Source of the DNA: Patescibacteria group bacterium
Lineage (GTDB): Bacteria; Patescibacteriota; Patescibacteriia; Buchananbacterales; UBA6539
Assembly (NCBI GenBank): GCA_041662625.1
Contig: JBAZSB010000001.1
Span: 374,467-438,466, forward strand
Length of the DNA stretch: 64,000 nt
Direction of reading: 5' to 3'
In this document: positions 20,559 through 27,768 of the stretch, piece after piece
How the letters are laid out: each line of letters begins with the position of its first letter
How positions within the stretch are numbered: position 1 is the first letter of the stretch
The notes under the pieces: model-generated
What the model was told of the DNA's origin: nothing
What the model saw: the letters and a program-made list of their open reading frames with translations, nothing else
Database searches by the model: none
Made by a program: the position numbers and the translations under genes

Positions 20559-22652
20559 ATGGAGGAAAAAATCGGTCAACTTAAATATTTAGTGATAAGT
20601 GTCATACTTTGTCTGGTATTGATTTTTAATTTTCTCAATTGGAGCAACCAAATTATTGGCCTGGGTTTTGGCCTAATCTACCTTTTATTTTATAGTTTTA
20701 TTTTTGGCTCAATCTTCATCAACAAAAAGGGCTGGCAAATTATTTTTGGCCTGCTTTTTTTATTCGCCCTGATTGCCGTTTTGGGCGCCGTAGCAATTTA
20801 TTTTTATGAACTCAATGATTATTTATTTATTCTTTTAATCCTTTTAATTCCCCTGATCTTAGTTACTCCCTATTATTTGGTCCAACCCAAAGAAAAATTT
20901 TCTTTGAAAAAAACCATCAAAAAATACTTGGATAAATTTGACCAGCGGCGGGAGCCAAAAACTAATTTTATTTTAGTGATTGCCTACCTGGCTTTGATCT
21001 CTTTGGCTTTTGCTTTTTTAATTAAAGGCCAGACCACCGAGTCAATTCAGGCACCCTGGCAAGTGGTTTCTTCCAAATTCCTGCCGGTTTATTTTCTATC
21101 CAGCTTTGTTCTTTTAACTTACCTTTTTCGTTCCCGCCGGACCAAGCTGCCTTTGATTTTATTAGTTATTCACACATTTTTGAGCAGCACGGTGGCTTTG
21201 CTGGTCTATAAAATTGGCTACGGTTTTGATCCTTTTATTCATCAGGCTACCGAAAGGATTATTGCCCAAACCGGAACCATCTGGCCTAAACCTCTTTATT
21301 ATCTTGGCCAATATGCCATAGTAGTCTTTTTTCATAAATTAACCACTTTAGACATTGCTTTAATTGATCGGATCTTAGTGCCGAGTCTTTTTTCTTTATT
21401 CCTGCCAACGATTATTTTTTATACCTTCAGCCACTGGGTGGAAAAAAAGTTTGCCTTAATCTTGGCCTTGGCGGTTTTGGTTATTCCCTACTCCGGTTTT
21501 ATTATGACCGCCCCCCAAAATTTAGCCAATCTGATTTTCATTCTCACTATTATTTTGTCGCTGCTTTATTACAAAAACCAAATCAGCCCCATCATTTTAT
21601 ACCTTCTGACCTTAGCTACCATTGCCATTCATCCCATGGCTGGCATTCCCCTATTGATTGCCGTATTTTTGCTGAATTTATTCAAATTCCTTTACACCAG
21701 CTACATTAAATATTTAAGTCTTTACTTTTTTTCCGCCCTGGTCTTTGTCATCTTTTTGCCTTTGGCTTTTATCAGCAATGGTTCCACCCTGAATCTAAAA
21801 CCGGTTTTCAAGCTTTCTGATTTTAAATGGTTTGGCTGGATTGATAAATTTGATTTGCCGCTAAATTTGGTTTATTTGGTCAATGCAAATAAAATAATTC
21901 TTGCCAGCCTAATTATTATAATCGGTCTAGTTTATCTTGCTAAAAATAAACTGCTAAAAAACAACGCCGGCTACCTGATGGCAGCTTTGATTATCGTTGT
22001 AGATTTTGTCATTACCAAATACTTTCTGGCCTTCCCCGACCTCCAAGATTATGACAAAAATTTCTTTGTCGCCCGGCTAGCAATTATTGCTTTCTATATA
22101 TTGCTGCCTTTCTTTCTGCTTGGCCTTTATTTCATTAGCAAAAAATTATATCAGCATGATTTTTACACCCGCCTGTTGCTTATTTTAGTTTTAGCCGGCA
22201 GCCTAACCATTTCTTTGTATCTTTCTTATCCCCGCCTAAATCAATATGAACCAGCCAAATTCTTTAGTGTTTCGGCTTCTGATATCAAAGCTGTTGATTT
22301 CATCGAAAAAAGCGCCGCACCAAACCATCTGGTTTTGGCTAATCAGATGATTGGGGTAACGGCAATCAAAGAATTTGGATTTAAAAAATATTATAATAAT
22401 CAATTTTATTATTCCATGCCCATGGGTAGTCCGCGCACTTTTTATGAATACTACTTGGAAATGATTTACCAAGGTGCCAAAAGAGAAACTATGGAAAAAG
22501 CGATGAATGAAGCCGGGGTCACGGAAGCTTATTTTGTTTTGAATCAATACTGGAATAATTCAACTAAAATTGCCAAGCAAGCAACAGAATCAGCCGATAA
22601 AATTTACGATATTGATAATGGCAAAATTTATATCTTTAAATATGTAAAATAA
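20559..22652 (+). CDS. large polytopic membrane protein
   Basis: 697 aa with about 14 TM helices. TGcTAAAAT (-10) ends 6 nt before the ATG, so the mRNA is possibly leaderless. Confidence 0.5.
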   Translation: MEEKIGQLKYLVISVILCLVLIFNFLNWSNQIIGLGFGLIYLLFYSFIFGSIFINKKGWQIIFGLLFLFALIAVLGAVAIYFYELNDYLFILLILLIPLILVTPYYLVQPKEKFSLKKTIKKYLDKFDQRREPKTNFILVIAYLALISLAFAFLIKGQTTESIQAPWQVVSSKFLPVYFLSSFVLLTYLFRSRRTKLPLILLVIHTFLSSTVALLVYKIGYGFDPFIHQATERIIAQTGTIWPKPLYYLGQYAIVVFFHKLTTLDIALIDRILVPSLFSLFLPTIIFYTFSHWVEKKFALILALAVLVIPYSGFIMTAPQNLANLIFILTIILSLLYYKNQISPIILYLLTLATIAIHPMAGIPLLIAVFLLNLFKFLYTSYIKYLSLYFFSALVFVIFLPLAFISNGSTLNLKPVFKLSDFKWFGWIDKFDLPLNLVYLVNANKIILASLIIIIGLVYLAKNKLLKNNAGYLMAALIIVVDFVITKYFLAFPDLQDYDKNFFVARLAIIAFYILLPFFLLGLYFISKKLYQHDFYTRLLLILVLAGSLTISLYLSYPRLNQYEPAKFFSVSASDIKAVDFIEKSAAPNHLVLANQMIGVTAIKEFGFKKYYNNQFYYSMPMGSPRTFYEYYLEMIYQGAKRETMEKAMNEAGVTEAYFVLNQYWNNSTKIAKQATESADKIYDIDNGKIYIFKYVK

Positions 22653-22683: not shown

Positions 22684-22716
22684 CAAAAAAAGTATGATAT
22701 AAGCCATACTTTTTTT
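22684..22716 (+). terminator. bidirectional intrinsic terminator (A7-agtatg-loop-catact-T7)
   Basis: Perfect 12-13-bp inverted repeat aaaaaaagtatg / catacttttttt, 32 nt after the stop of ORF 20559..22652. Confidence 0.5.
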
Positions 22717-22755: not shown

Positions 22756-22783
22756 TTGACAAAGCCAAAAATAATCCTACAAT
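22756..22783 (+). promoter_or_regulatory. sigma70-type promoter TTGACA-N16-TACAAT
   Basis: ttgaca at 22756-22761 and tacaat at 22778-22783. GGGAGG Shine-Dalgarno at 22826-22831. Confidence 0.55.
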
Positions 22784-22843
22784 GAATATTCACTAGCCCC
22801 TTATCAAGGGCACTTTCGTAACAAAGGGAGGTACAAGAAAATC

Positions 22844-23200
22844 ATGGACATAAATGAGTTGCTGCAGGAAATCGGCGAGTCACAACCAGGGCTTGCTAAA
22901 AGATTCAGGCAAGTCTTTACGACGGTACAAGAAGGTCTCAAGGATAGGTGTCCAAATTCGCCAGAATTAGCCTGGGCCATCAGGGCCATTCTCCCTCGGG
23001 AAGAAGCGAAACCGGGCCAAAGTGAAAAAGATCGACCGCTAGTCAAAGGCCAAAACCTTTGGGCTTTGCTAGTCGAAATCTATCCCAGCCACGCCACCAA
23101 CTCGCCTGAACTCGATATCAGCGCCCTACTCAACCGGTGGCTACCAATGATTGGCGCCTTGATCCACATCAATCGAAAGCGATCAAAGCCAATCTGCTGA
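22844..23200 (+). CDS. hypothetical 118-aa protein (island ORF A), GC-rich, no recognisable family
   Basis: ORF with Shine-Dalgarno, own promoter and own terminator. Composition (about 55-60% GC) contrasts with the host (about 30%). Confidence 0.5.
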   Translation: MDINELLQEIGESQPGLAKRFRQVFTTVQEGLKDRCPNSPELAWAIRAILPREEAKPGQSEKDRPLVKGQNLWALLVEIYPSHATNSPELDISALLNRWLPMIGALIHINRKRSKPIC

Positions 23201-23217
23201 TAATGCTTCTAGTGATT

Positions 23218-23251
23218 CCACCAAGACATTGATCTTGGTGGCTCTTTTTTA
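23218..23251 (+). terminator. intrinsic terminator ccaccaaga-cattga-tcttggtgg + CTCTTTTTT
   Basis: 9-bp GC-rich stem plus U-tract 18 nt after the ORF A stop. Confidence 0.7.
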
Positions 23252-23282
23252 TTCTGGTTTGAATTCTGGTTCTATCTTTAAG

Positions 23283-23311
23283 TTGACAATTTCCTATAAT
23301 TAAGCTATAAT
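23283..23311 (+). promoter_or_regulatory. perfect-consensus sigma70 promoter TTGACA-N17-TATAAT
   Basis: ttgaca at 23283-23288, 17-nt spacer, tataat at 23306-23311. Confidence 0.65.
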
Positions 23312-23317
23312 AAAAAA

Positions 23318-23354
23318 TCAAGACCCATCGTCTTGACCCAGCAATGATTTGCTG
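23318..23354 (+). promoter_or_regulatory. two operator-like palindromes at/after the predicted TSS: tcaagac-ccatc-gtcttga and cagcaa-tgat-ttgctg
   Basis: Inverted repeats at 23318-23336 and 23339-23354, between the -10 and the Shine-Dalgarno. Confidence 0.5.
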
Positions 23355-23396
23355 GTAGTTCCAAACCCGGCAAGCAACAAAGCGAAGGAGGTTCCA

Positions 23397-23570
23397 ATGC
23401 AAGGTTGGTATTTGGTAGTTGATGTAACACCGGAGCAACTTGAGGCGATGCGAGGCAAACTCGAACCGGTTATTCGGGCCGCGCTCGAAGAACTCCACCT
23501 CACGCCGCGCGTGGATGACACGAATGCAGCGGGTAAACCCGGACTCAACATCAACTTCGTCACCGGCTGA
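23397..23570 (+). CDS. hypothetical 57-aa protein (island ORF B)
   Basis: AAGGAGG Shine-Dalgarno at 23385-23391, 6 nt before ATG 23397. The ORF-track start at 23349 lacks a Shine-Dalgarno. Confidence 0.5.
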   Translation: MQGWYLVVDVTPEQLEAMRGKLEPVIRAALEELHLTPRVDDTNAAGKPGLNINFVTG

Positions 23571-23598
23571 TTCGTCATCGGCTAAAAGGAGGCACCCT

Positions 23599-23940
23599 AT
23601 GCAAAAGCTAAAGCGCACATTCGACGGATTAGCGGCAGGTTGCCCCTGGCTACCCAGTCTCCTCCATGACCTGCCAGGAGCCTTTACCCGGGAAAGCGAA
23701 GAAATCCTCTGCGACGGAATTGTTGCTCTGACCAGCGAAGACCCCCAAGACCATTTGGTCGGGGATGATCTCTGGAATGAGTTACATCGACAGTTCCCCG
23801 CCGGCGACGACATCAATTTCCTCGGCCTGGTAGGCGCACTGGAAGAAAAACTCAGCTACATCAAGGCTATGGCAGCCAGATGTGCTGATGCGGCTGCCGA
23901 TGCAGAACCTGAGGAGACTACCGTCGTTCTCGTCGGCTGA
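23599..23940 (+). CDS. hypothetical acidic 113-aa protein (island ORF C)
   Basis: AAAGGAGG at 23583-23591 precedes ATG 23599. It is 28 nt downstream of ORF B (bicistronic). D/E-rich. The ORF-track 166-aa version from 23440 overlaps ORF B out of frame and lacks a Shine-Dalgarno. Confidence 0.5.
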   Translation: MQKLKRTFDGLAAGCPWLPSLLHDLPGAFTRESEEILCDGIVALTSEDPQDHLVGDDLWNELHRQFPAGDDINFLGLVGALEEKLSYIKAMAARCADAAADAEPEETTVVLVG

Positions 23941-23979
23941 GACAGCCCCCTGCCCTCCCTTGGCACTACTGCCTAAGGG

Positions 23980-24014
23980 GACGACCATGCACTCGCGTGG
24001 TCGTCATTTTCTTT
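23980..24014 (+). terminator. intrinsic terminator gacgacca-tgcactcgcg-tggtcgtc + ATTTTCTTT
   Basis: 8-bp stem plus T-rich tail 40 nt after the ORF C stop. It abuts the stop codon of the convergent host gene at 24013. Confidence 0.65.
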
Positions 24015-24597
24015 AGCAACATTTTTTCTGAAAAGCCAAAGCTAACTGGCCGGCTTCGGTCATATCCTTACCCAAAGCAATAAAACCGTGATTTTTCAAA
24101 ACTAAAAAATTATTATTTTCTAAAATAGACAAAGCTTGTCTGACTAATTCGAGGCTGCCATAAGGGGCTTCTTTTTTGGTTTGCGGGATATTTAATTTTT
24201 TCGCCTGGGCTAAAATTTGCTGACAGTGGCCATGAAAGATGGCATTAACTTCCACTCGCTTCTGATAAAGGGCAAAATGAAGCATCGTTTCCGAAGATGG
24301 CTCCATTACCCCTTCAGCTTGAATAATTTTTCTTTCAAAATCACAATTAAAGATTTTGACAAAAGATTGATTAGTTAAATCTTCTTTGGCTTTTAGGCCT
24401 GCGCCGGTAATAATAAAAATGTTTTCTCCTTCTTTTAGGCGAAAACTGAGATTCCCGGCTGAGCAACCATCGTAAACCGGCGCCAAATTAGACTGGTGAA
24501 AATCCTGGCACCATTTGATTAGTTCAATAATTCTTGGATCTTGGGGCGCTTGCTTTTTTATAAATTCGGTTTTAAATTTTACACCGGGATACACCAT
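24013..24597 (-). CDS. class II aldolase/adducin family protein (MtnB-like dehydratase/aldolase)
   Basis: 194 aa with HGH-type metal-binding motifs (AIFHGHC). Adjacent to an e2B2-family isomerase. Confidence 0.6.
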   Translation of the reverse strand: MVYPGVKFKTEFIKKQAPQDPRIIELIKWCQDFHQSNLAPVYDGCSAGNLSFRLKEGENIFIITGAGLKAKEDLTNQSFVKIFNCDFERKIIQAEGVMEPSSETMLHFALYQKRVEVNAIFHGHCQQILAQAKKLNIPQTKKEAPYGSLELVRQALSILENNNFLVLKNHGFIALGKDMTEAGQLALAFQKKCC

Positions 24598-24630
24598 AGA
24601 AATTAGGTTGTAGGTAGTAGGTTGTAGCAG

Positions 24631-25680
24631 TTAGAATAATTTGCTGATTGCTTTTTCATTCGCTTTGATTATTCCTTTCTCGGTAATGATACCAGTGATA
24701 TATTTTGCCGGGGTAACATCAAAAGCCGGATTAATTGCCTCTGACCCCGGTGAACAAACTAAAATTCTTTCAATTTTTCCGGCCGAGTTTGGTCCGGTCT
24801 GGTATAAAACTTCGTCTTCACTGCGTTGTTCAATGGGAATTTCTGTCCCACTTGGGCAATTCCGATCAATCGTTGAAGTTGGCGCGGCAACATAAAATGG
24901 CACGTCATAAACTTTAGCTACAATCGCTTTTTCCAAAGTCCCGATTTTATTGGCCACGTCGCCATTTCGGGCAATCCGGTCAGCACCAACAATCATTAAG
25001 TCCACTTTATGCTGGCTCATCAGATAAGCCCCGGCATTATCCGGAATAATCTTATGAGGCACGCCTTCATTTTTTAATTCCCAGGCTGTCAATCGTGCCC
25101 CCTGGCTGCGCGGCCGGGTTTCGTCAGTGTAGACAAAGATTTTTTTGCCTGCCCGGTGAGCCGTGTAAATTGGTGCCAAAGCACTGCCCCAGTCCACAAA
25201 GGCCAGCCAGCCGGCATTACAATGGGTTTCAATCTGAAAGCCGTCTTTAATTAATTCATTGCCATACTCCCCTATTTTTCTGCCATTTTCAGCATTTTCT
25301 AAAGCCAGCCTTTGCGCTTCATTCAAAGCCGCTTCAGTCGGCTGAGCGGAATTTTTTCCGGCTTGGTAAACCATTTTAGTCGCATAAAACAAATCATGAG
25401 CCGTGGGCCGGGTGGCTTCAATATCCGCTTTTGCTTTTTCTATAAATTGCCAAAAATTATCAGCTGGTGCTTCCAGAAATGCTTGAGCCAAGGCATAGCC
25501 AGCGGTTGCGCCGATGGCTCCGGCTCCCCTGACAATCATAGTATTAATCGCCTGACAACTTGCCAAATAATTTTTGGCTTCAAAAATCTTGAATTCAAAA
25601 GGTAATAAATTTTGCTCAATCAAAAAAACGGATGAACCCGCCATCCAGACTGTTTGATAATCTTTGCCTGCTACCTTCAT
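24631..25680 (-). CDS. mtnA: eIF-2B alpha/beta/delta-like isomerase (methylthioribose-1-phosphate or ribose-1,5-bisphosphate isomerase)
   Basis: RGAGAIGATAGYALAQA and CNAGWLAFVDWGSALAPIYTA motifs of the e2B2/MtnA family. Confidence 0.7.
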   Translation of the reverse strand: MKVAGKDYQTVWMAGSSVFLIEQNLLPFEFKIFEAKNYLASCQAINTMIVRGAGAIGATAGYALAQAFLEAPADNFWQFIEKAKADIEATRPTAHDLFYATKMVYQAGKNSAQPTEAALNEAQRLALENAENGRKIGEYGNELIKDGFQIETHCNAGWLAFVDWGSALAPIYTAHRAGKKIFVYTDETRPRSQGARLTAWELKNEGVPHKIIPDNAGAYLMSQHKVDLMIVGADRIARNGDVANKIGTLEKAIVAKVYDVPFYVAAPTSTIDRNCPSGTEIPIEQRSEDEVLYQTGPNSAGKIERILVCSPGSEAINPAFDVTPAKYITGIITEKGIIKANEKAISKLF

Positions 25681-25682
25681 AG

Positions 25683-26852
25683 CTATAATAATTTAATCAG
25701 CTGCTTTAAATAGTTACTGACCGAAAAATTCCGAACTGAAACAAAACAATTCTTTTTCAGCTCTTCAATTTTTTCCGGATGATTCAAAAAATATTCTAAA
25801 ACCTCAATCAAATTTTTTTCATTACCCGGGGCAAAAGTAAAACCGTTGTAATCATCTTTGACAATTTCCGAAACACCACCGATATCAGCAGCAATCACCG
25901 GAACGTTGGCCACCAAACTTTCATCAATCACTTTGGGTGAATTTTCATAACAAAGTGAAGGCACAATCGTCAAATCAGCCTGGCGATAATAATCCGCTAA
26001 TTTGTCCTGCTCAACGCGGCCAATCAACTGAAAACGATTATCATCTTGGGCTAATCTTTTCGCTTCTTCCATCACTCCCCCGCCACCAACAACAGTCAGC
26101 TGCCAATTTTGCGGTTTTACTTTTTTCAAAGCCTCAATCAAAAGTAAAACACCTTTGAATCTTTCCAGCTGCCCGACAAACAATAAATTAATTTTTCGAT
26201 TTCTGATATCACCCAGTTCAATCTTTTCAACTTTTTTAAATTCCAAAGGATTAGGCATAATTAATTTTTTTGATTCATAGAAAAACCCCCGGGCCTGATA
26301 ATAACCCAGCAACCAGCGCGAGGGCGAAATTACCACATCAGGATTACTAAAAAGTCGCTTAACCGTTTTTTCATAAACTTTATCCAAAACCAAAAAAGGT
26401 TTTTCCGCTCCAAAAATTATCAAACCTGACGGCCGGGAAAGCTGGACATCATGAACCGTATGAAAATGGCGGATGCCGACTTTACGAATCGCTTTGGGAA
26501 TTAAATAACCCACACCTTTTAAATTATGAGTCATAACCACAGCGGGTTTTTCCTGCTCCAAAATCTTTTTCACCTGAGAATAACTGCTCAGATTAAAAAC
26601 ATCGATTGGATGCCACAACAAGCGCAACCAAACCGGCCGTTTATCAATATCCAAAAAAGAAAAAACATTTTTAGGCTTGATCCGGTAAATCGTCAATTTA
26701 CCCTCTTTGGTCACTGCCTTTTGCCGGCCTAAAGTAATCAAAACTACCTCATGGCCCAAACTCAAAAGGCCGCGGACAATGATTTCCACTACCACTTCCG
26801 CCCCACCCCGCTTATAGGGCTTGTATAGGCTATGAATTAGGCAAATCTTCAT
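25683..26852 (-). CDS. glycosyltransferase family 4 (GT-B)
   Basis: C-terminal GT1/GT4 signature (FVGQLERFKG...E...P). 389 aa. Confidence 0.8.
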   Translation of the reverse strand: MKICLIHSLYKPYKRGGAEVVVEIIVRGLLSLGHEVVLITLGRQKAVTKEGKLTIYRIKPKNVFSFLDIDKRPVWLRLLWHPIDVFNLSSYSQVKKILEQEKPAVVMTHNLKGVGYLIPKAIRKVGIRHFHTVHDVQLSRPSGLIIFGAEKPFLVLDKVYEKTVKRLFSNPDVVISPSRWLLGYYQARGFFYESKKLIMPNPLEFKKVEKIELGDIRNRKINLLFVGQLERFKGVLLLIEALKKVKPQNWQLTVVGGGGVMEEAKRLAQDDNRFQLIGRVEQDKLADYYRQADLTIVPSLCYENSPKVIDESLVANVPVIAADIGGVSEIVKDDYNGFTFAPGNEKNLIEVLEYFLNHPEKIEELKKNCFVSVRNFSVSNYLKQLIKLL

Positions 26853-27486: not shown

Positions 27487-27768
27487 TTAGGAGTTGTGTG
27501 GATCATGCCGCAGGGCATTATCTAGTGCAAGCCGGCTTTCCGTCAAAGGTCCACCCATGCGGGCAACTTCCTGTCTGATTTCGTTAACCAGTTCTTCGGG
27601 TAACCCTTGCACCGTTCGCATAATGTCGTAGAGGGCCTCTGGTGTTGCTCCCTCATAAGAGCATAACCTGCGAACAGTTTCGGCTTGTTTGGCAACGAGC
27701 GCGTGCCGAAATATCAAGCTGTGCTCAGCTAGTTTTCGGCCAAGTGCCTTCAATACTCTTCTAAACAT
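27487..27768 (-). CDS. hypothetical 93-aa protein, GC-rich (about 53%), inside the IR-bounded segment
   Basis: AAAGGAGA Shine-Dalgarno 5 nt before the ATG (minus strand). A stem-loop (7-bp stem ccctggg / cccaggg style, large loop) plus T-rich tail follows the stop. Confidence 0.45.
   Translation of the reverse strand: MFRRVLKALGRKLAEHSLIFRHALVAKQAETVRRLCSYEGATPEALYDIMRTVQGLPEELVNEIRQEVARMGGPLTESRLALDNALRHDPHNS

What the first reader, a model, noticed from the sequence alone, without database searches (positions are those of the whole stretch)
22756..23251. Stand-alone monocistronic unit for ORF A (118 aa) with its own promoter and terminator
ORF A is insulated from ORF B/C by a GC-clamped terminator (ccaccaaga…tcttggtgg + U-tract) and has a separate promoter. 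Its C-terminus is basic (HINRKRSKPIC) while the rest is helical and acidic. It is a candidate regulator of the downstream palindromes, or a third component (e.g. a sensor or effector) of the same system.
Basis: partly seen in the sequence, partly recalled or inferred. Interest (0 to 1): 0.55.

Follow-up and report, generated by a model that had tools for sequence, protein, structure and literature searches.

The report
Orphan small-gene cassette in variable slot
ORF A is a real, self-contained small gene, but it is a diverged second copy of the neighbouring ORF C rather than a DNA-binding regulator; both belong to a tiny, fast-evolving family of helical proteins of unknown function that sits in a variable cargo slot between two conserved cell-envelope genes of Buchananbacteria-like Patescibacteria.

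Summary
Window 22756-23251 contains a near-consensus sigma-70 promoter (11/12), a Shine-Dalgarno site, a 118-aa ORF and a 9-bp GC-clamped terminator with a T6 tract. It lies in a 1.26-kb island of 50-58% GC in a ~36% GC Patescibacteria genome. The proposal that ORF A regulates the downstream palindromes is not supported.

Fifteen related metagenome loci show that the island sits at the 3'-3' junction of two conserved convergent genes, a 697-aa membrane protein and a GT4 glycosyltransferase. This junction carries different small genes in different lineages, most with their own TTGACA promoter, SD site and terminator.

ORF A, ORF C and five small proteins from this slot in relatives form one family of 87-118 aa helical proteins. 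Without ORF A in the profile, hhalign gives 81% probability (E 1e-5), and an HMM ranks ORF A first among 4836 ORFs, above all 5000 shuffles. No other relative turned up among 5.8 billion proteins, Pfam, PHROGs, PADLOC, NCBIfam, PDB, phages or plasmids.

Family proteins are 22-44% identical where the flanking protein is 63-76% identical. L031 keeps promoter P2, the second palindrome, ORF B and ORF C but has no ORF A. The function is unknown; I infer a strain-variable, protein-binding accessory factor.

The parts
22685..22716 (+). AT-rich hairpin AAAAAAAGTATG/CATACTTTTTTT after the stop of the 697-aa membrane-protein gene. It is probably the host gene's terminator and marks the left edge of the slot.
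   Evidence: Inverted repeat I10, 12 nt, 100% complementary; sequence.
22756..22783 (+). Promoter P1 of ORF A: TTGACA, 16 nt, TACAAT.
   Evidence: 11/12 match. One of only 8 sites >=11/12 in the window. The core TTGACAAAGCCAAAAAT is 16/17 identical to the promoter of the A-like gene in L028.
22826..22831 (+). Shine-Dalgarno GGGAGG, 12 nt upstream of the ATG.
   Evidence: Read from the sequence.
22844..23200 (+). ORF A, 118 aa, a divergent A-type member of the slot family. The conserved motif G-x-x-L-W-x-x-L-x-E-x-Y-P begins at residue 69. The tail is a hydrophobic helix followed by basic residues.
   Evidence: (GC1>GC3>GC2).
23218..23250 (+). Intrinsic terminator of ORF A: 9-bp stem CCACCAAGA/TCTTGGTGG, 6-nt loop, T6 tract.
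   Evidence: The same arms (CCACCAA...TCTTGGTGG plus a T run) follow the A-like gene of L038.
23283..23311 (+). Promoter P2 of the B/C operon: TTGACA, 17 nt, TATAAT.
   Evidence: 12/12, unique in the window. The first 26 nt are identical in L031.
23318..23355 (+). Two different palindromes or hairpins at the start of the P2 transcript: 23318-23336 and 23338-23355.
   Evidence: Fold of -22.7 kcal/mol, z -1.71. Hairpin 2 is kept in L031 with one compensatory pair; hairpin 1 is degenerate there.
23397..23570 (+). ORF B, 57 aa, the conserved partner gene.
   Evidence: 61% identical homologue at L031:1340-1516, tblastn E 5e-19. No hit in any family library.
23599..23940 (+). ORF C, 113 aa, pI 4.3, paralogue of ORF A and a core member of the slot family.
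   Evidence: Leave-one-out HMM E 2e-9 to 4e-8. BLASTP against the L034 member gives 2.7e-14.
23980..24005 (+). Strong terminator GACGACCATGC/GCGTGGTCGTC plus T tract, at the right edge of the cassette region.
   Evidence: The 76-nt stretch that contains it (23940-24015) folds at -33.7 kcal/mol, z -6.3. The 3' arm with its T run, GGTCGTCWTTTT, is also present in the slots of L026, L031, L037 and L038.

Best explanation
ORF A is a genuine protein-coding gene, expressed as a monocistronic unit from its own sigma-70-type promoter P1 and ended by its own intrinsic terminator.

It is the first-position ('A-type') member of a very small, lineage-restricted family of soluble, mostly helical proteins of 87-118 aa. 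ORF C in the same island belongs to the same family, so A and C are diverged paralogues.

The family lives in a single chromosomal place: the 3'-3' junction between a conserved 697-aa membrane protein gene and a convergent GT4 glycosyltransferase gene. This junction lies inside an envelope-glycan gene cluster of Buchananbacteria-like Patescibacteria. It acts as a cargo slot whose content differs between lineages. Nothing reads into it from either side, so most of the cargo genes examined carry their own promoter, SD site and terminator. That explains the textbook 'stand-alone' look of ORF A.

The coding sequences diverge much faster than the flanking genes, and in places faster than their own promoters and terminators. 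This points to diversifying evolution or to allele exchange between conserved regulatory flanks.

Shown here: the anatomy, the paralogy, the slot and the rate contrast.

Inferred: the protein acts by binding another protein as a dispensable, strain-variable accessory factor, not by binding DNA. Its hydrophobic-plus-basic C-terminal helix may hold it at the membrane, near the product of the upstream gene.
For: Anatomy.

Evidence that the ORF is coding:
- GC1>GC3>GC2 in A, B and C but not in the 215-aa antisense ORF.
- The invariant Gly and the two invariant Leu of the family motif, and the conserved Pro (six of seven members), are each encoded by three or four different synonymous codons across the members.

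Evidence that the locus is real: it is 100% and 99.83% identical in two other assemblies, and all 14 SNPs lie outside the island.

Evidence for the slot:
- In L025-L038 the synteny is up413, up87, mem697, a gap of 126-1062 bp (mostly 400-1060 bp), then GT389.
- The gap carries varied small + strand genes with TTGACA promoters and terminators.

Evidence for family membership:
- An HMM built without ORF A scores it 14.1-14.4 bits. It is the best non-member among 4836 six-frame ORFs (E 0.014; the next scores 6.4 bits), and none of 5000 shuffles reach it.
- hhalign of ORF A against the six other members gives 81% probability, E 1.2e-5. The control 93-aa ORF gives 0.08%.
- An untrained member, L026:8194-8454, was recovered at E 3e-15.
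- Promoter P1 is shared with L028 and the terminator with L038.

Evidence for fast evolution:
- Family proteins are 22-44% identical, against 63-76% for the mem697 C-terminus in the same genome pairs.
- Window against L031, DNA identity: mem697 3' end 79%, P2 plus 5'UTR 73%, ORF B 68%, 3'UTR plus terminator 66%, ORF C 49% (shuffled sequence gives 47%).

Evidence that the family is restricted: the profile search of 5.8 billion proteins returned only the members themselves.

Evidence that the protein is soluble: the highest Kyte-Doolittle 19-aa window is 1.07.
Against: - Membership of ORF A rests mainly on about 40 C-terminal residues. Its N-terminal half aligns only weakly, and pairwise BLASTP E-values are 0.002-0.12.
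- L038 is itself a marginal member.
- No transcript, ribosome or proteome data were available, so the use of promoter and terminator is predicted only.
- The AF2 models are low confidence (pLDDT 50 and 55.5), so neither an HTH nor any other fold can be excluded structurally.
- The protein-binding and membrane-proximal role is inference with no direct support.
- The family genes are 5-20 GC points richer than their host loci. This remains unexplained and could mean repeated import from an unsampled donor.
Confidence: 0.6

Rival explanations
1. ORF A is a transcription factor that binds the palindromes downstream of P2 and controls ORF B/C.
For: It has a basic C-terminal tail, it is adjacent to P2, and two palindromes overlap the predicted start of the P2 transcript.
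Against: - No HTH or RHH family hit.
- It is a paralogue of the acidic ORF C.
- L031 keeps P2, palindrome 2, B and C without any ORF A.
- The two palindromes are unlike each other.
- Palindrome 1 is not kept in L031.
- A-type relatives in L028 and L026 have no P2 unit downstream, and L038 has a different second promoter there.
Confidence: 0.06
2. The island is a recent foreign import. It would be a moron-like unit from a phage, plasmid or GC-richer donor, and ORF A would be unrelated to the host lineage.
For: - 50-58% GC against about 36% for the host.
- Autonomous promoter and terminator.
- ORFan status.
- The aldolase/MtnA pair next door does look imported.
Against: - Family members occupy the same slot in six lineages, with shared promoters and terminators.
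- No match in 50,697 phage records, 72,556 plasmids or IMG/VR.
- No PHROG hit.
- No integrase, and no flanking repeats above chance.
Confidence: 0.12
3. ORF A and ORF C are conflict proteins under diversifying selection, such as an anti-phage, anti-defence or immunity-type binder. ORF B would be the conserved partner.
For: - Coding sequence is saturated between conserved regulatory flanks.
- The family tree disagrees with the flanks: C is closest to L034, not to its positional orthologue in L031.
- Strong promoters.
- Small acidic helical proteins.
- The slot lies in an envelope-glycan cluster and carries heterogeneous cargo.
Against: - No PADLOC, Pfam or PHROG hit.
- No neighbouring toxin, nuclease or known defence gene.
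- Fast divergence is also what weakly constrained young orphan genes show.
- No dN/dS estimate is possible, because all close copies are identical.
Confidence: 0.17
4. ORF A is a non-functional or decaying duplicate of ORF C, possibly transcribed but without a selected role.
For: It is the most divergent family member, with a 19-residue insert (residues 50-68), a changed charge and only about 40 well-aligned residues.
Against: - The reading frame is intact, with an SD site and a near-consensus promoter and terminator.
- It shows a coding-type codon-position bias.
- The family motif is retained through synonymous codon changes.
- Positional A-type counterparts exist in L028 and L038, with shared regulatory DNA.
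Confidence: 0.06
5. ORF A is a degenerate two-repeat TPR protein.
For: - The only non-self phmmer hit among 1.84 billion representatives is a NACHT/NPHP3-TPR_12 protein (P0002, E 8e-4, 4 stretches).
- The NSPEL motifs at residues 38 and 86 are 48 residues apart, the same as the period of P0002's repeats.
Against: - No Pfam TPR model hits ORF A at E<=1.
- BLASTP finds nothing.
- hhalign gives 17% for ORF A and 0.07% for the family profile.
- The E-value is inflated because one short motif is summed over many repeats.
Confidence: 0.04

Closest known systems
Phage 'morons': independent transcription units added between conserved genes (definition as in PMC3594210, 'The moron comes of age')
   Same: One small gene is bracketed by its own strong promoter and its own intrinsic terminator. 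It sits between conserved genes, has a base composition unlike its surroundings, and is present in some relatives and absent in others.
   Different: The setting is a chromosomal envelope-glycan cluster of a Patescibacteria genome, not a prophage. No phage gene, PHROG hit or viral relative was found. The same slot is reused across lineages by a single protein family.
Accessory-gene hotspots between conserved core genes, such as the variable regions of surface-polysaccharide loci (from general knowledge)
   Same: The flanking genes are fixed and conserved, the cargo is heterogeneous and lineage-specific, and there is no dedicated recombinase. Turnover by homologous recombination in the flanks is plausible.
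   Different: The cargo is very small (60-130 aa ORFs). Each unit has its own regulatory elements, and some of these (P1, P2, both terminators) are conserved while the coding part between them is replaced or saturated.
Integron gene cassettes
   Same: A series of small, variable, often orphan genes lies at one chromosomal site.
   Different: There is no integrase, no attI and no attC-type sites. These cassettes carry their own promoters and terminators, which integron cassettes usually lack.
Operons pairing a small conserved gene with a hypervariable one behind a strong promoter that carries inverted repeats, such as anti-CRISPR/Aca operons (from general knowledge; a resemblance only)
   Same: The B/C unit has a perfect-consensus promoter, palindromes at the transcript start, a conserved small partner (B, 61% identical in L031) and a saturated variable acidic partner (C).
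   Different: The gene order is reversed, with the conserved gene first. B has no detectable HTH or RHH. There is no mobile-element context. ORF A stands alone without such a partner.
TPR_12-type helical repeat proteins
   Same: ORF A residues 15-49 match a 35-residue stretch of the P0002 repeat, and the motif spacing is 48 residues in both.
   Different: ORF A fails every TPR profile test, and the rest of the family shows no such signal.

Membership tests
Slot family (new, unnamed): small helical proteins between mem697 and GT389 | Sequence match to a profile built from the other members | tested here: met
   The leave-A-out HMM scores ORF A 14.1-14.4 bits, E 0.014 among 4836 ORFs. It is the top non-member, and none of 5000 shuffles reach it. 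hhalign gives 81%, E 1.2e-5, against 0.08% for the negative control. The match covers mainly residues 65-106.
Slot family (new, unnamed) | Located directly downstream of the mem697 gene, on the same strand, as a self-contained unit | tested here: met
   This holds for ORF A and for the members in L026, L028, L034 and L038. ORF C and the L031 member follow a B gene instead.
Slot family (new, unnamed) | Regulatory DNA shared with positional counterparts | tested here: met
   The P1 core TTGACAAAGCCAAAAAT matches TTGACAAAACCAAAAAT in L028. The terminator arms CCACCAA...TCTTGGTGG plus T run are shared with L038 and occur nowhere else in the 43 loci.
HTH or ribbon-helix-helix transcription regulators | Match to a DNA-binding domain profile | tested here: not met
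   No family at E<=1 in Pfam, NCBIfam, PHROGs or PADLOC. No PDB sequence match. No hit for any of the 7 family members.
HTH or ribbon-helix-helix transcription regulators | DNA-binding fold in the structure | tested here: inconclusive
   AF2 gives pLDDT 50 (single sequence) and 55.5 (5-sequence alignment), with five helices and no N-terminal strand. Foldseek against PDB has no match at E<=0.001. The models are too poor to decide.
HTH or ribbon-helix-helix transcription regulators | Co-occurrence of the regulator with its operator | tested here: not met
   L031 keeps P2 and palindrome 2 but lacks ORF A. L026 and L028 have A-type genes with no P2 or palindromes downstream, and L038 has a different second promoter there.
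TPR repeat proteins (Pfam TPR_1/2/10/12) | Match to TPR profiles, with repeats seen across the family | tested here: not met
   No Pfam TPR hit at E<=1. hhalign against P0002 repeats gives 17% for ORF A and 0.07% for the family. BLASTP gives E 8.
Phage moron | Own promoter and own terminator around a single gene, with deviant base composition | tested here: met
   These are consensus and folding predictions only.
Phage moron | Residence in a phage or prophage genome between conserved phage genes | tested here: not met
   The neighbours are AftA-like, PMT_2, dTDP-sugar isomerase, GT4, aldolase and MtnA genes. There are no PHROG hits and no phage or viral-contig relatives.
Known defence or toxin-antitoxin systems | Match to PADLOC or Pfam models of defence, toxin or antitoxin proteins | tested here: not met
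   No PADLOC hit for A, B or C, and no Pfam hit.
Independent transcription unit (the claim itself) | Transcript 5' end downstream of P1 and 3' end at the terminator | not testable with these tools
   No transcriptome data are accessible. Only sequence predictions and their conservation in relatives are available.

The most novel reading that the evidence does not exclude
The slot may be a 'socket' system. Conserved regulatory shells (P1 with its terminator; P2, 5'UTR and ORF B with the end terminator) would hold a protein-coding insert that is swapped or driven to sequence saturation. ORF A and ORF C would then be two alleles or paralogues of a diversifying binder that these ultra-small episymbiotic bacteria use in conflict with phages or with their host cells. 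That would make it a previously undescribed class of hypervariable intracellular factors specific to Patescibacteria.
Probability: 0.15. Interest if true: 0.65.

Novelty: new variant of a known kind. Interest (0 to 1): 0.36.

Why it matters
ORF A alone is a modest finding: an orphan hypothetical protein with clean expression signals.

It gains value from context. It exposes a previously undescribed protein family with seven members and no relative among 5.8 billion proteins. It also exposes a compact accessory-gene slot in an envelope-glycan cluster of Patescibacteria, where coding sequences turn over faster than their own promoters and terminators.

Patescibacteria have tiny genomes and depend on host cells. 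Dispensable, strongly promoted, fast-evolving genes in them are therefore reasonable candidates for interaction or conflict functions. The near-consensus and perfect sigma-70 promoters and the clean terminators also give usable examples of expression signals in an uncultivated lineage.

If the family proves to be only a weakly constrained young gene family, the finding is ordinary.

Tried and rejected
- TPR lead. The only remote hit is the NACHT-TPR protein P0002, with matching 48-residue motif spacing. I rejected it after BLASTP, hhalign at 17%, family-level hhalign at 0.07% and the absence of any Pfam TPR hit.
- Structure route. Two AF2 runs gave pLDDT 50 and 55.5. Foldseek against PDB gave no match below E 3. 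The models were not usable.
- Profile against PDB sequences, for the family and for ORF B. Only designed helical bundles and calmodulin appeared, at E>0.05.
- RNA explanations. Rfam had no hits in the whole window and there are no tRNAs. A 19-nt complementarity between the ORF A ribosome-binding region and the B/C leader (I4) is no better than 207 of 1000 shuffles.
- Mobile-element signs. No flanking direct or inverted repeats stand out from chance. There is no DNA or protein match in phages or plasmids or in viral contigs.
- Synteny through GTDB representative genomes. The aldolase query found nothing. The MtnA query found only distant Bacteroidales and archaeal loci with no shared context.
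- Population variation for dN/dS. Every other copy of the island, and of the L034 allele, is 100% identical.
- The 93-aa GC-rich ORF at 27487-27768 as a further family member. Rejected.
Full report
**1. What is in the sequence**

The window is a Patescibacteria metagenome-assembled genome of about 36% GC. NCBI names the ORF A product 'hypothetical protein WC675_01945 [Patescibacteria group bacterium]'. Positions 22800-24010 are the most GC-rich stretch of the 64 kb, at 0.49-0.58.

- Promoter P1: TTGACA-16-TACAAT at 22756-22783, 11/12.
- GGGAGG at 22826-22831.
- ATG at 22844, the first start codon after the upstream in-frame stop.
- A 118-codon ORF ending at 23200.
- A 9-bp stem CCACCAAGA/TCTTGGTGG at 23218-23241, followed by T6 at 23245-23250.

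A second unit follows:
- A perfect TTGACA-17-TATAAT promoter (P2) at 23283-23311.
- Two hairpins or palindromes at 23318-23355.
- ORF B, 57 aa, ATG at 23397.
- ORF C, 113 aa, ATG at 23599.
- A strong terminator at 23980-24005.

Only eight sites in the whole window, both strands, reach 11/12 for the promoter consensus. Two of them are these, and P2 is the only 12/12 site. The 61-nt stretch containing the ORF A terminator (23195-23255) folds at -14.5 kcal/mol, z -2.2. The 76-nt stretch containing the final terminator (23940-24015) folds at -33.7 kcal/mol, z -6.3.

Codon-position GC follows the coding pattern GC1>GC3>GC2 in A, B and C. It is flat in the long antisense ORF at 23169-23816.

The same locus appears in two further assemblies at 100% and 99.83% identity. 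All 14 differences lie outside the island, so it is not a chimera.

**2. No known relatives**

ORF A, B and C hit nothing in Pfam, PHROGs, PADLOC or NCBIfam at E<=1, apart from noise.
- ORF A finds only itself among 5.77 billion clustered proteins.
- An exhaustive phmmer search of 1.84 billion representatives adds one marginal hit, P0002, at E 8e-4.
- ORF C also finds only itself.
- There is no DNA or protein similarity in phage or plasmid collections or in viral contigs.
- Rfam and tRNA scans are empty.

**3. The context in relatives explains the anatomy**

I used the upstream 697-aa membrane protein ('mem697', 20559-22652) as an anchor. A metagenome scan returned 15 loci at 53-73% protein identity.

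In them the gene order is 413-aa PMT_2-like gene (-), 87-aa gene (-), mem697 (+), a gap of 126-1062 bp (mostly 400-1060 bp), then a GT4 glycosyltransferase (-). That GT4 gene is the orthologue of window 25683-26852. In the window, the gap holds the A/B/C island plus a class II aldolase and an MtnA-like gene. None of the relatives has that pair.

The surrounding region is an envelope-glycan cluster, with AftA-like, PMT_2, dTDP-sugar isomerase, epimerase and GT2/GT4 genes.

The gap is the 3'-3' junction of two convergent conserved genes, and its content varies by lineage:
- small helical proteins
- zinc-ribbon ORFs (L029, L033)
- a Cys-rich pair (L037, L038)
- a nucleoside-deoxyribosyltransferase-like ORF (L032)
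- a 415-aa cupin-like ORF (L027)
- structured non-coding DNA only (L025, L035, L036)

Most of these small genes have a TTGACA(A) -35 box with a -10 box at 16-18 nt, an SD site and a hairpin plus T-run. The L032 gene is an exception: no such promoter is visible in its upstream sequence. A gene placed at a convergent junction receives no transcription from either neighbour. Self-sufficient expression signals are therefore expected for any cargo there. The 'stand-alone' look of ORF A is a property of the slot, not a special feature of ORF A.

**4. ORF A and ORF C are paralogues in a new, tiny family**

tblastn found a 61% identical ORF B homologue in L031 and a 35% identical ORF C homologue in L034, both inside the slot.

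Reading the slot ORFs showed a shared pattern. The N-terminal motif is [FL]-E-E-L-A-x-G-x-x-x-L-x-x-L-[FL]. The C-terminal motif is G-x-x-L-W-x-x-L-x-x-x-[FY]-P...L-x-L. It is present in window ORF A, window ORF C, L028:8192-8458, L031:1529-1834, L034:842-1102 and L038:8171-8476.

Statistics:
- Leave-one-out HMMs give E 2e-9 to 2e-5 for C, L028, L031c and L034.
- A family HMM run over all 4836 six-frame ORFs of the window and 43 loci recovered an untrained member, L026:8194-8454, at E 3e-15.
- With L026 added and ORF A left out, ORF A scores 14.1-14.4 bits. It is the best non-member (E 0.014; the next scores 6.4 bits), and none of 5000 shuffles reach it, the best scoring 8.1.
- hhalign of ORF A against the other six gives 81% probability, E 1.2e-5, over residues 67-106. 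The unrelated GC-rich 93-aa ORF at 27487-27768 gives 0.08%.

The invariant Gly and the two invariant Leu, and the Pro kept in six of the seven members, are encoded by different synonymous codons across members: GGC/GGG/GGT/GGA, CTT/CTC/TTG/CTG, CTA/TTA/CTC and CCC/CCT/CCA. This is direct evidence that the frame is under selection at the amino-acid level.

Regulatory DNA supports positional orthology:
- The P1 core is 16/17 identical to the L028 promoter.
- The ORF A terminator arms recur after the L038 member and nowhere else in the fetched loci.
- The end-of-slot terminator arm GGTCGTC plus T-run recurs in L026, L031, L037 and L038.

A profile search of 5.8 billion proteins with the family alignment returned only the members themselves, one of them labelled Candidatus Buchananbacteria. 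The support for ORF A rests mostly on its C-terminal 40 residues, and I rate membership as likely, not certain.

**5. Evolutionary behaviour**

Family proteins are 22-44% identical between genomes whose mem697 C-termini are 63-76% identical.

The window and L031 share the whole B/C unit. DNA identity by segment:

| Segment | DNA identity |
|---|---|
| 3' end of mem697 | 79% |
| P2 plus 5'UTR (first 26 nt identical) | 73% |
| ORF B | 68% |
| 3'UTR plus terminator | 66% |
| ORF C | 49% (shuffled sequence: 47%) |

ORF C's best relative is the L034 protein (BLASTP 2.7e-14), not its positional counterpart in L031 (0.008). So the coding inserts either evolve at saturating speed or are exchanged between conserved regulatory flanks. 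All seven family genes are 5-20 GC points richer than their own loci, which I cannot explain.

**6. The regulator hypothesis**

Nothing supports DNA binding by ORF A.
- There is no HTH or RHH profile hit. The predicted secondary structure is five helices (3-13, 15-33, 40-49, 69-79, 92-113), but at pLDDT 50-55.5. The fold search was empty.
- L031 retains P2 and hairpin 2 (CCAGCAA/TTGCTGG becomes CTAGCAA/TTGCTAG, one compensatory pair), together with B and a C-type gene, but has no ORF A.
- A-type genes in L026 and L028 have no P2 downstream, and L038 has a different second promoter there.
- The two palindromes differ in sequence and lie in the first ~40 nt of the predicted transcript. In L031 only the second survives.

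They are at least as likely to be 5'-terminal mRNA hairpins as operators. With two sequences this cannot be settled. If anything in the island regulates P2, the conserved ORF B is the better candidate, though it too has no recognisable DNA-binding domain.

**7. How it most likely works**

Shown:
- ORF A is an autonomous, coding, slot-resident paralogue of ORF C.
- It is soluble: the highest Kyte-Doolittle 19-aa window is 1.07, and I saw no N-terminal signal peptide.

Inferred:
- It is expressed from P1 as a monocistronic mRNA.
- It acts as a small helical protein-binding module that is dispensable and strain-variable.
- The A-type members (ORF A, L028, L038) share a [NS]-[RN]-W motif followed by a hydrophobic stretch and a basic end. 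This could be an amphipathic membrane-proximal tail placing the protein near the product of the upstream membrane-protein gene. That is speculation.
- The fast divergence fits either a conflict role or weak constraint on a young gene family. I give the conflict reading about 15-17%.

**8. Comparison with known systems**

In architecture ORF A works like a phage moron: an independent transcription unit of deviant composition inserted between conserved genes (definition in PMC3594210). It fails the defining requirement of residing in a phage or prophage. It also resembles cargo in chromosomal accessory-gene hotspots and, loosely, integron cassettes, but there is no integrase and no attC. It is not a TPR protein, not a recognisable transcription factor, and not a known defence or toxin-antitoxin component.

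**9. Verdict**

- Novelty: a new, very small protein family and a new variant of the autonomous-cassette-in-a-hotspot theme, in an uncultivated lineage.
- Interest is moderate to low (0.36), because the function remains unknown and an ordinary reading, a fast-evolving orphan accessory gene, fits the data.

Noticed in passing
window 24013-25680 (-): The class II aldolase plus IF-2B/MtnA-like gene pair sits inside the same slot only in this genome. All 15 related loci lack it. The closest MtnA relatives among GTDB representatives are Bacteroidales and archaea at 57-70% identity, which suggests horizontal acquisition.
   Followed up: partly
window 27487-27768 (-): A second GC-rich (51%) small ORF of 93 aa has a good SD site (AAAGGAGA) and the coding-type GC1>GC3>GC2 pattern. 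It has no hit in any family library and is unrelated to the A/C family (hhalign 0.08%). It was not searched in the large protein databases.
   Followed up: partly
L025:8051-8488 (same in L035 and L036): In these relatives the slot has no ORF of 40 aa or more. It holds long GC-rich nested inverted repeats instead (for example ...CCTCCCCCCGATTGCC...GGCAATGGGGGGAGG...), so the cargo there may be structured RNA or DNA.
   Followed up: no
L026:8600-8900: Downstream of the family member in L026 there is a block of repeated units, direct and inverted, resembling GTGACCTTGAATGAAACTGAAAGGTCA. In this locus the GT4 gene is not adjacent.
   Followed up: no
L037:8177-8413 and L038:8625-8834: A second small family occupies the slot. 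These are Cys-rich proteins of 69-78 aa (pattern GC...Q.VP...C...C.DY[NQ]NG.C.[IV]L), each with its own TTGACA promoter, ended by the same GGTCGTC-T terminator as the window's B/C unit.
   Followed up: partly
L029:8184-8420 and L033:772-975: Zinc-ribbon-like small ORFs (CxxC...CxC) are another type of slot cargo. Their Pfam zinc-ribbon hits are weak and below threshold.
   Followed up: partly
window 23539-23561 and 23801-23823: ORF B and ORF C share a short C-terminal motif, P-G-L-N-I-N-F-V against P-A-G-D-D-I-N-F-L, seen as a 23-nt direct repeat at 74% identity. It may be chance.
   Followed up: no
All seven family genes (window ORF A and ORF C; members in L026, L028, L031, L034, L038): Every family gene is 5-20 GC percentage points richer than its own locus (0.39-0.56 against 0.32-0.41), whatever the host GC. 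No explanation was found.
   Followed up: partly
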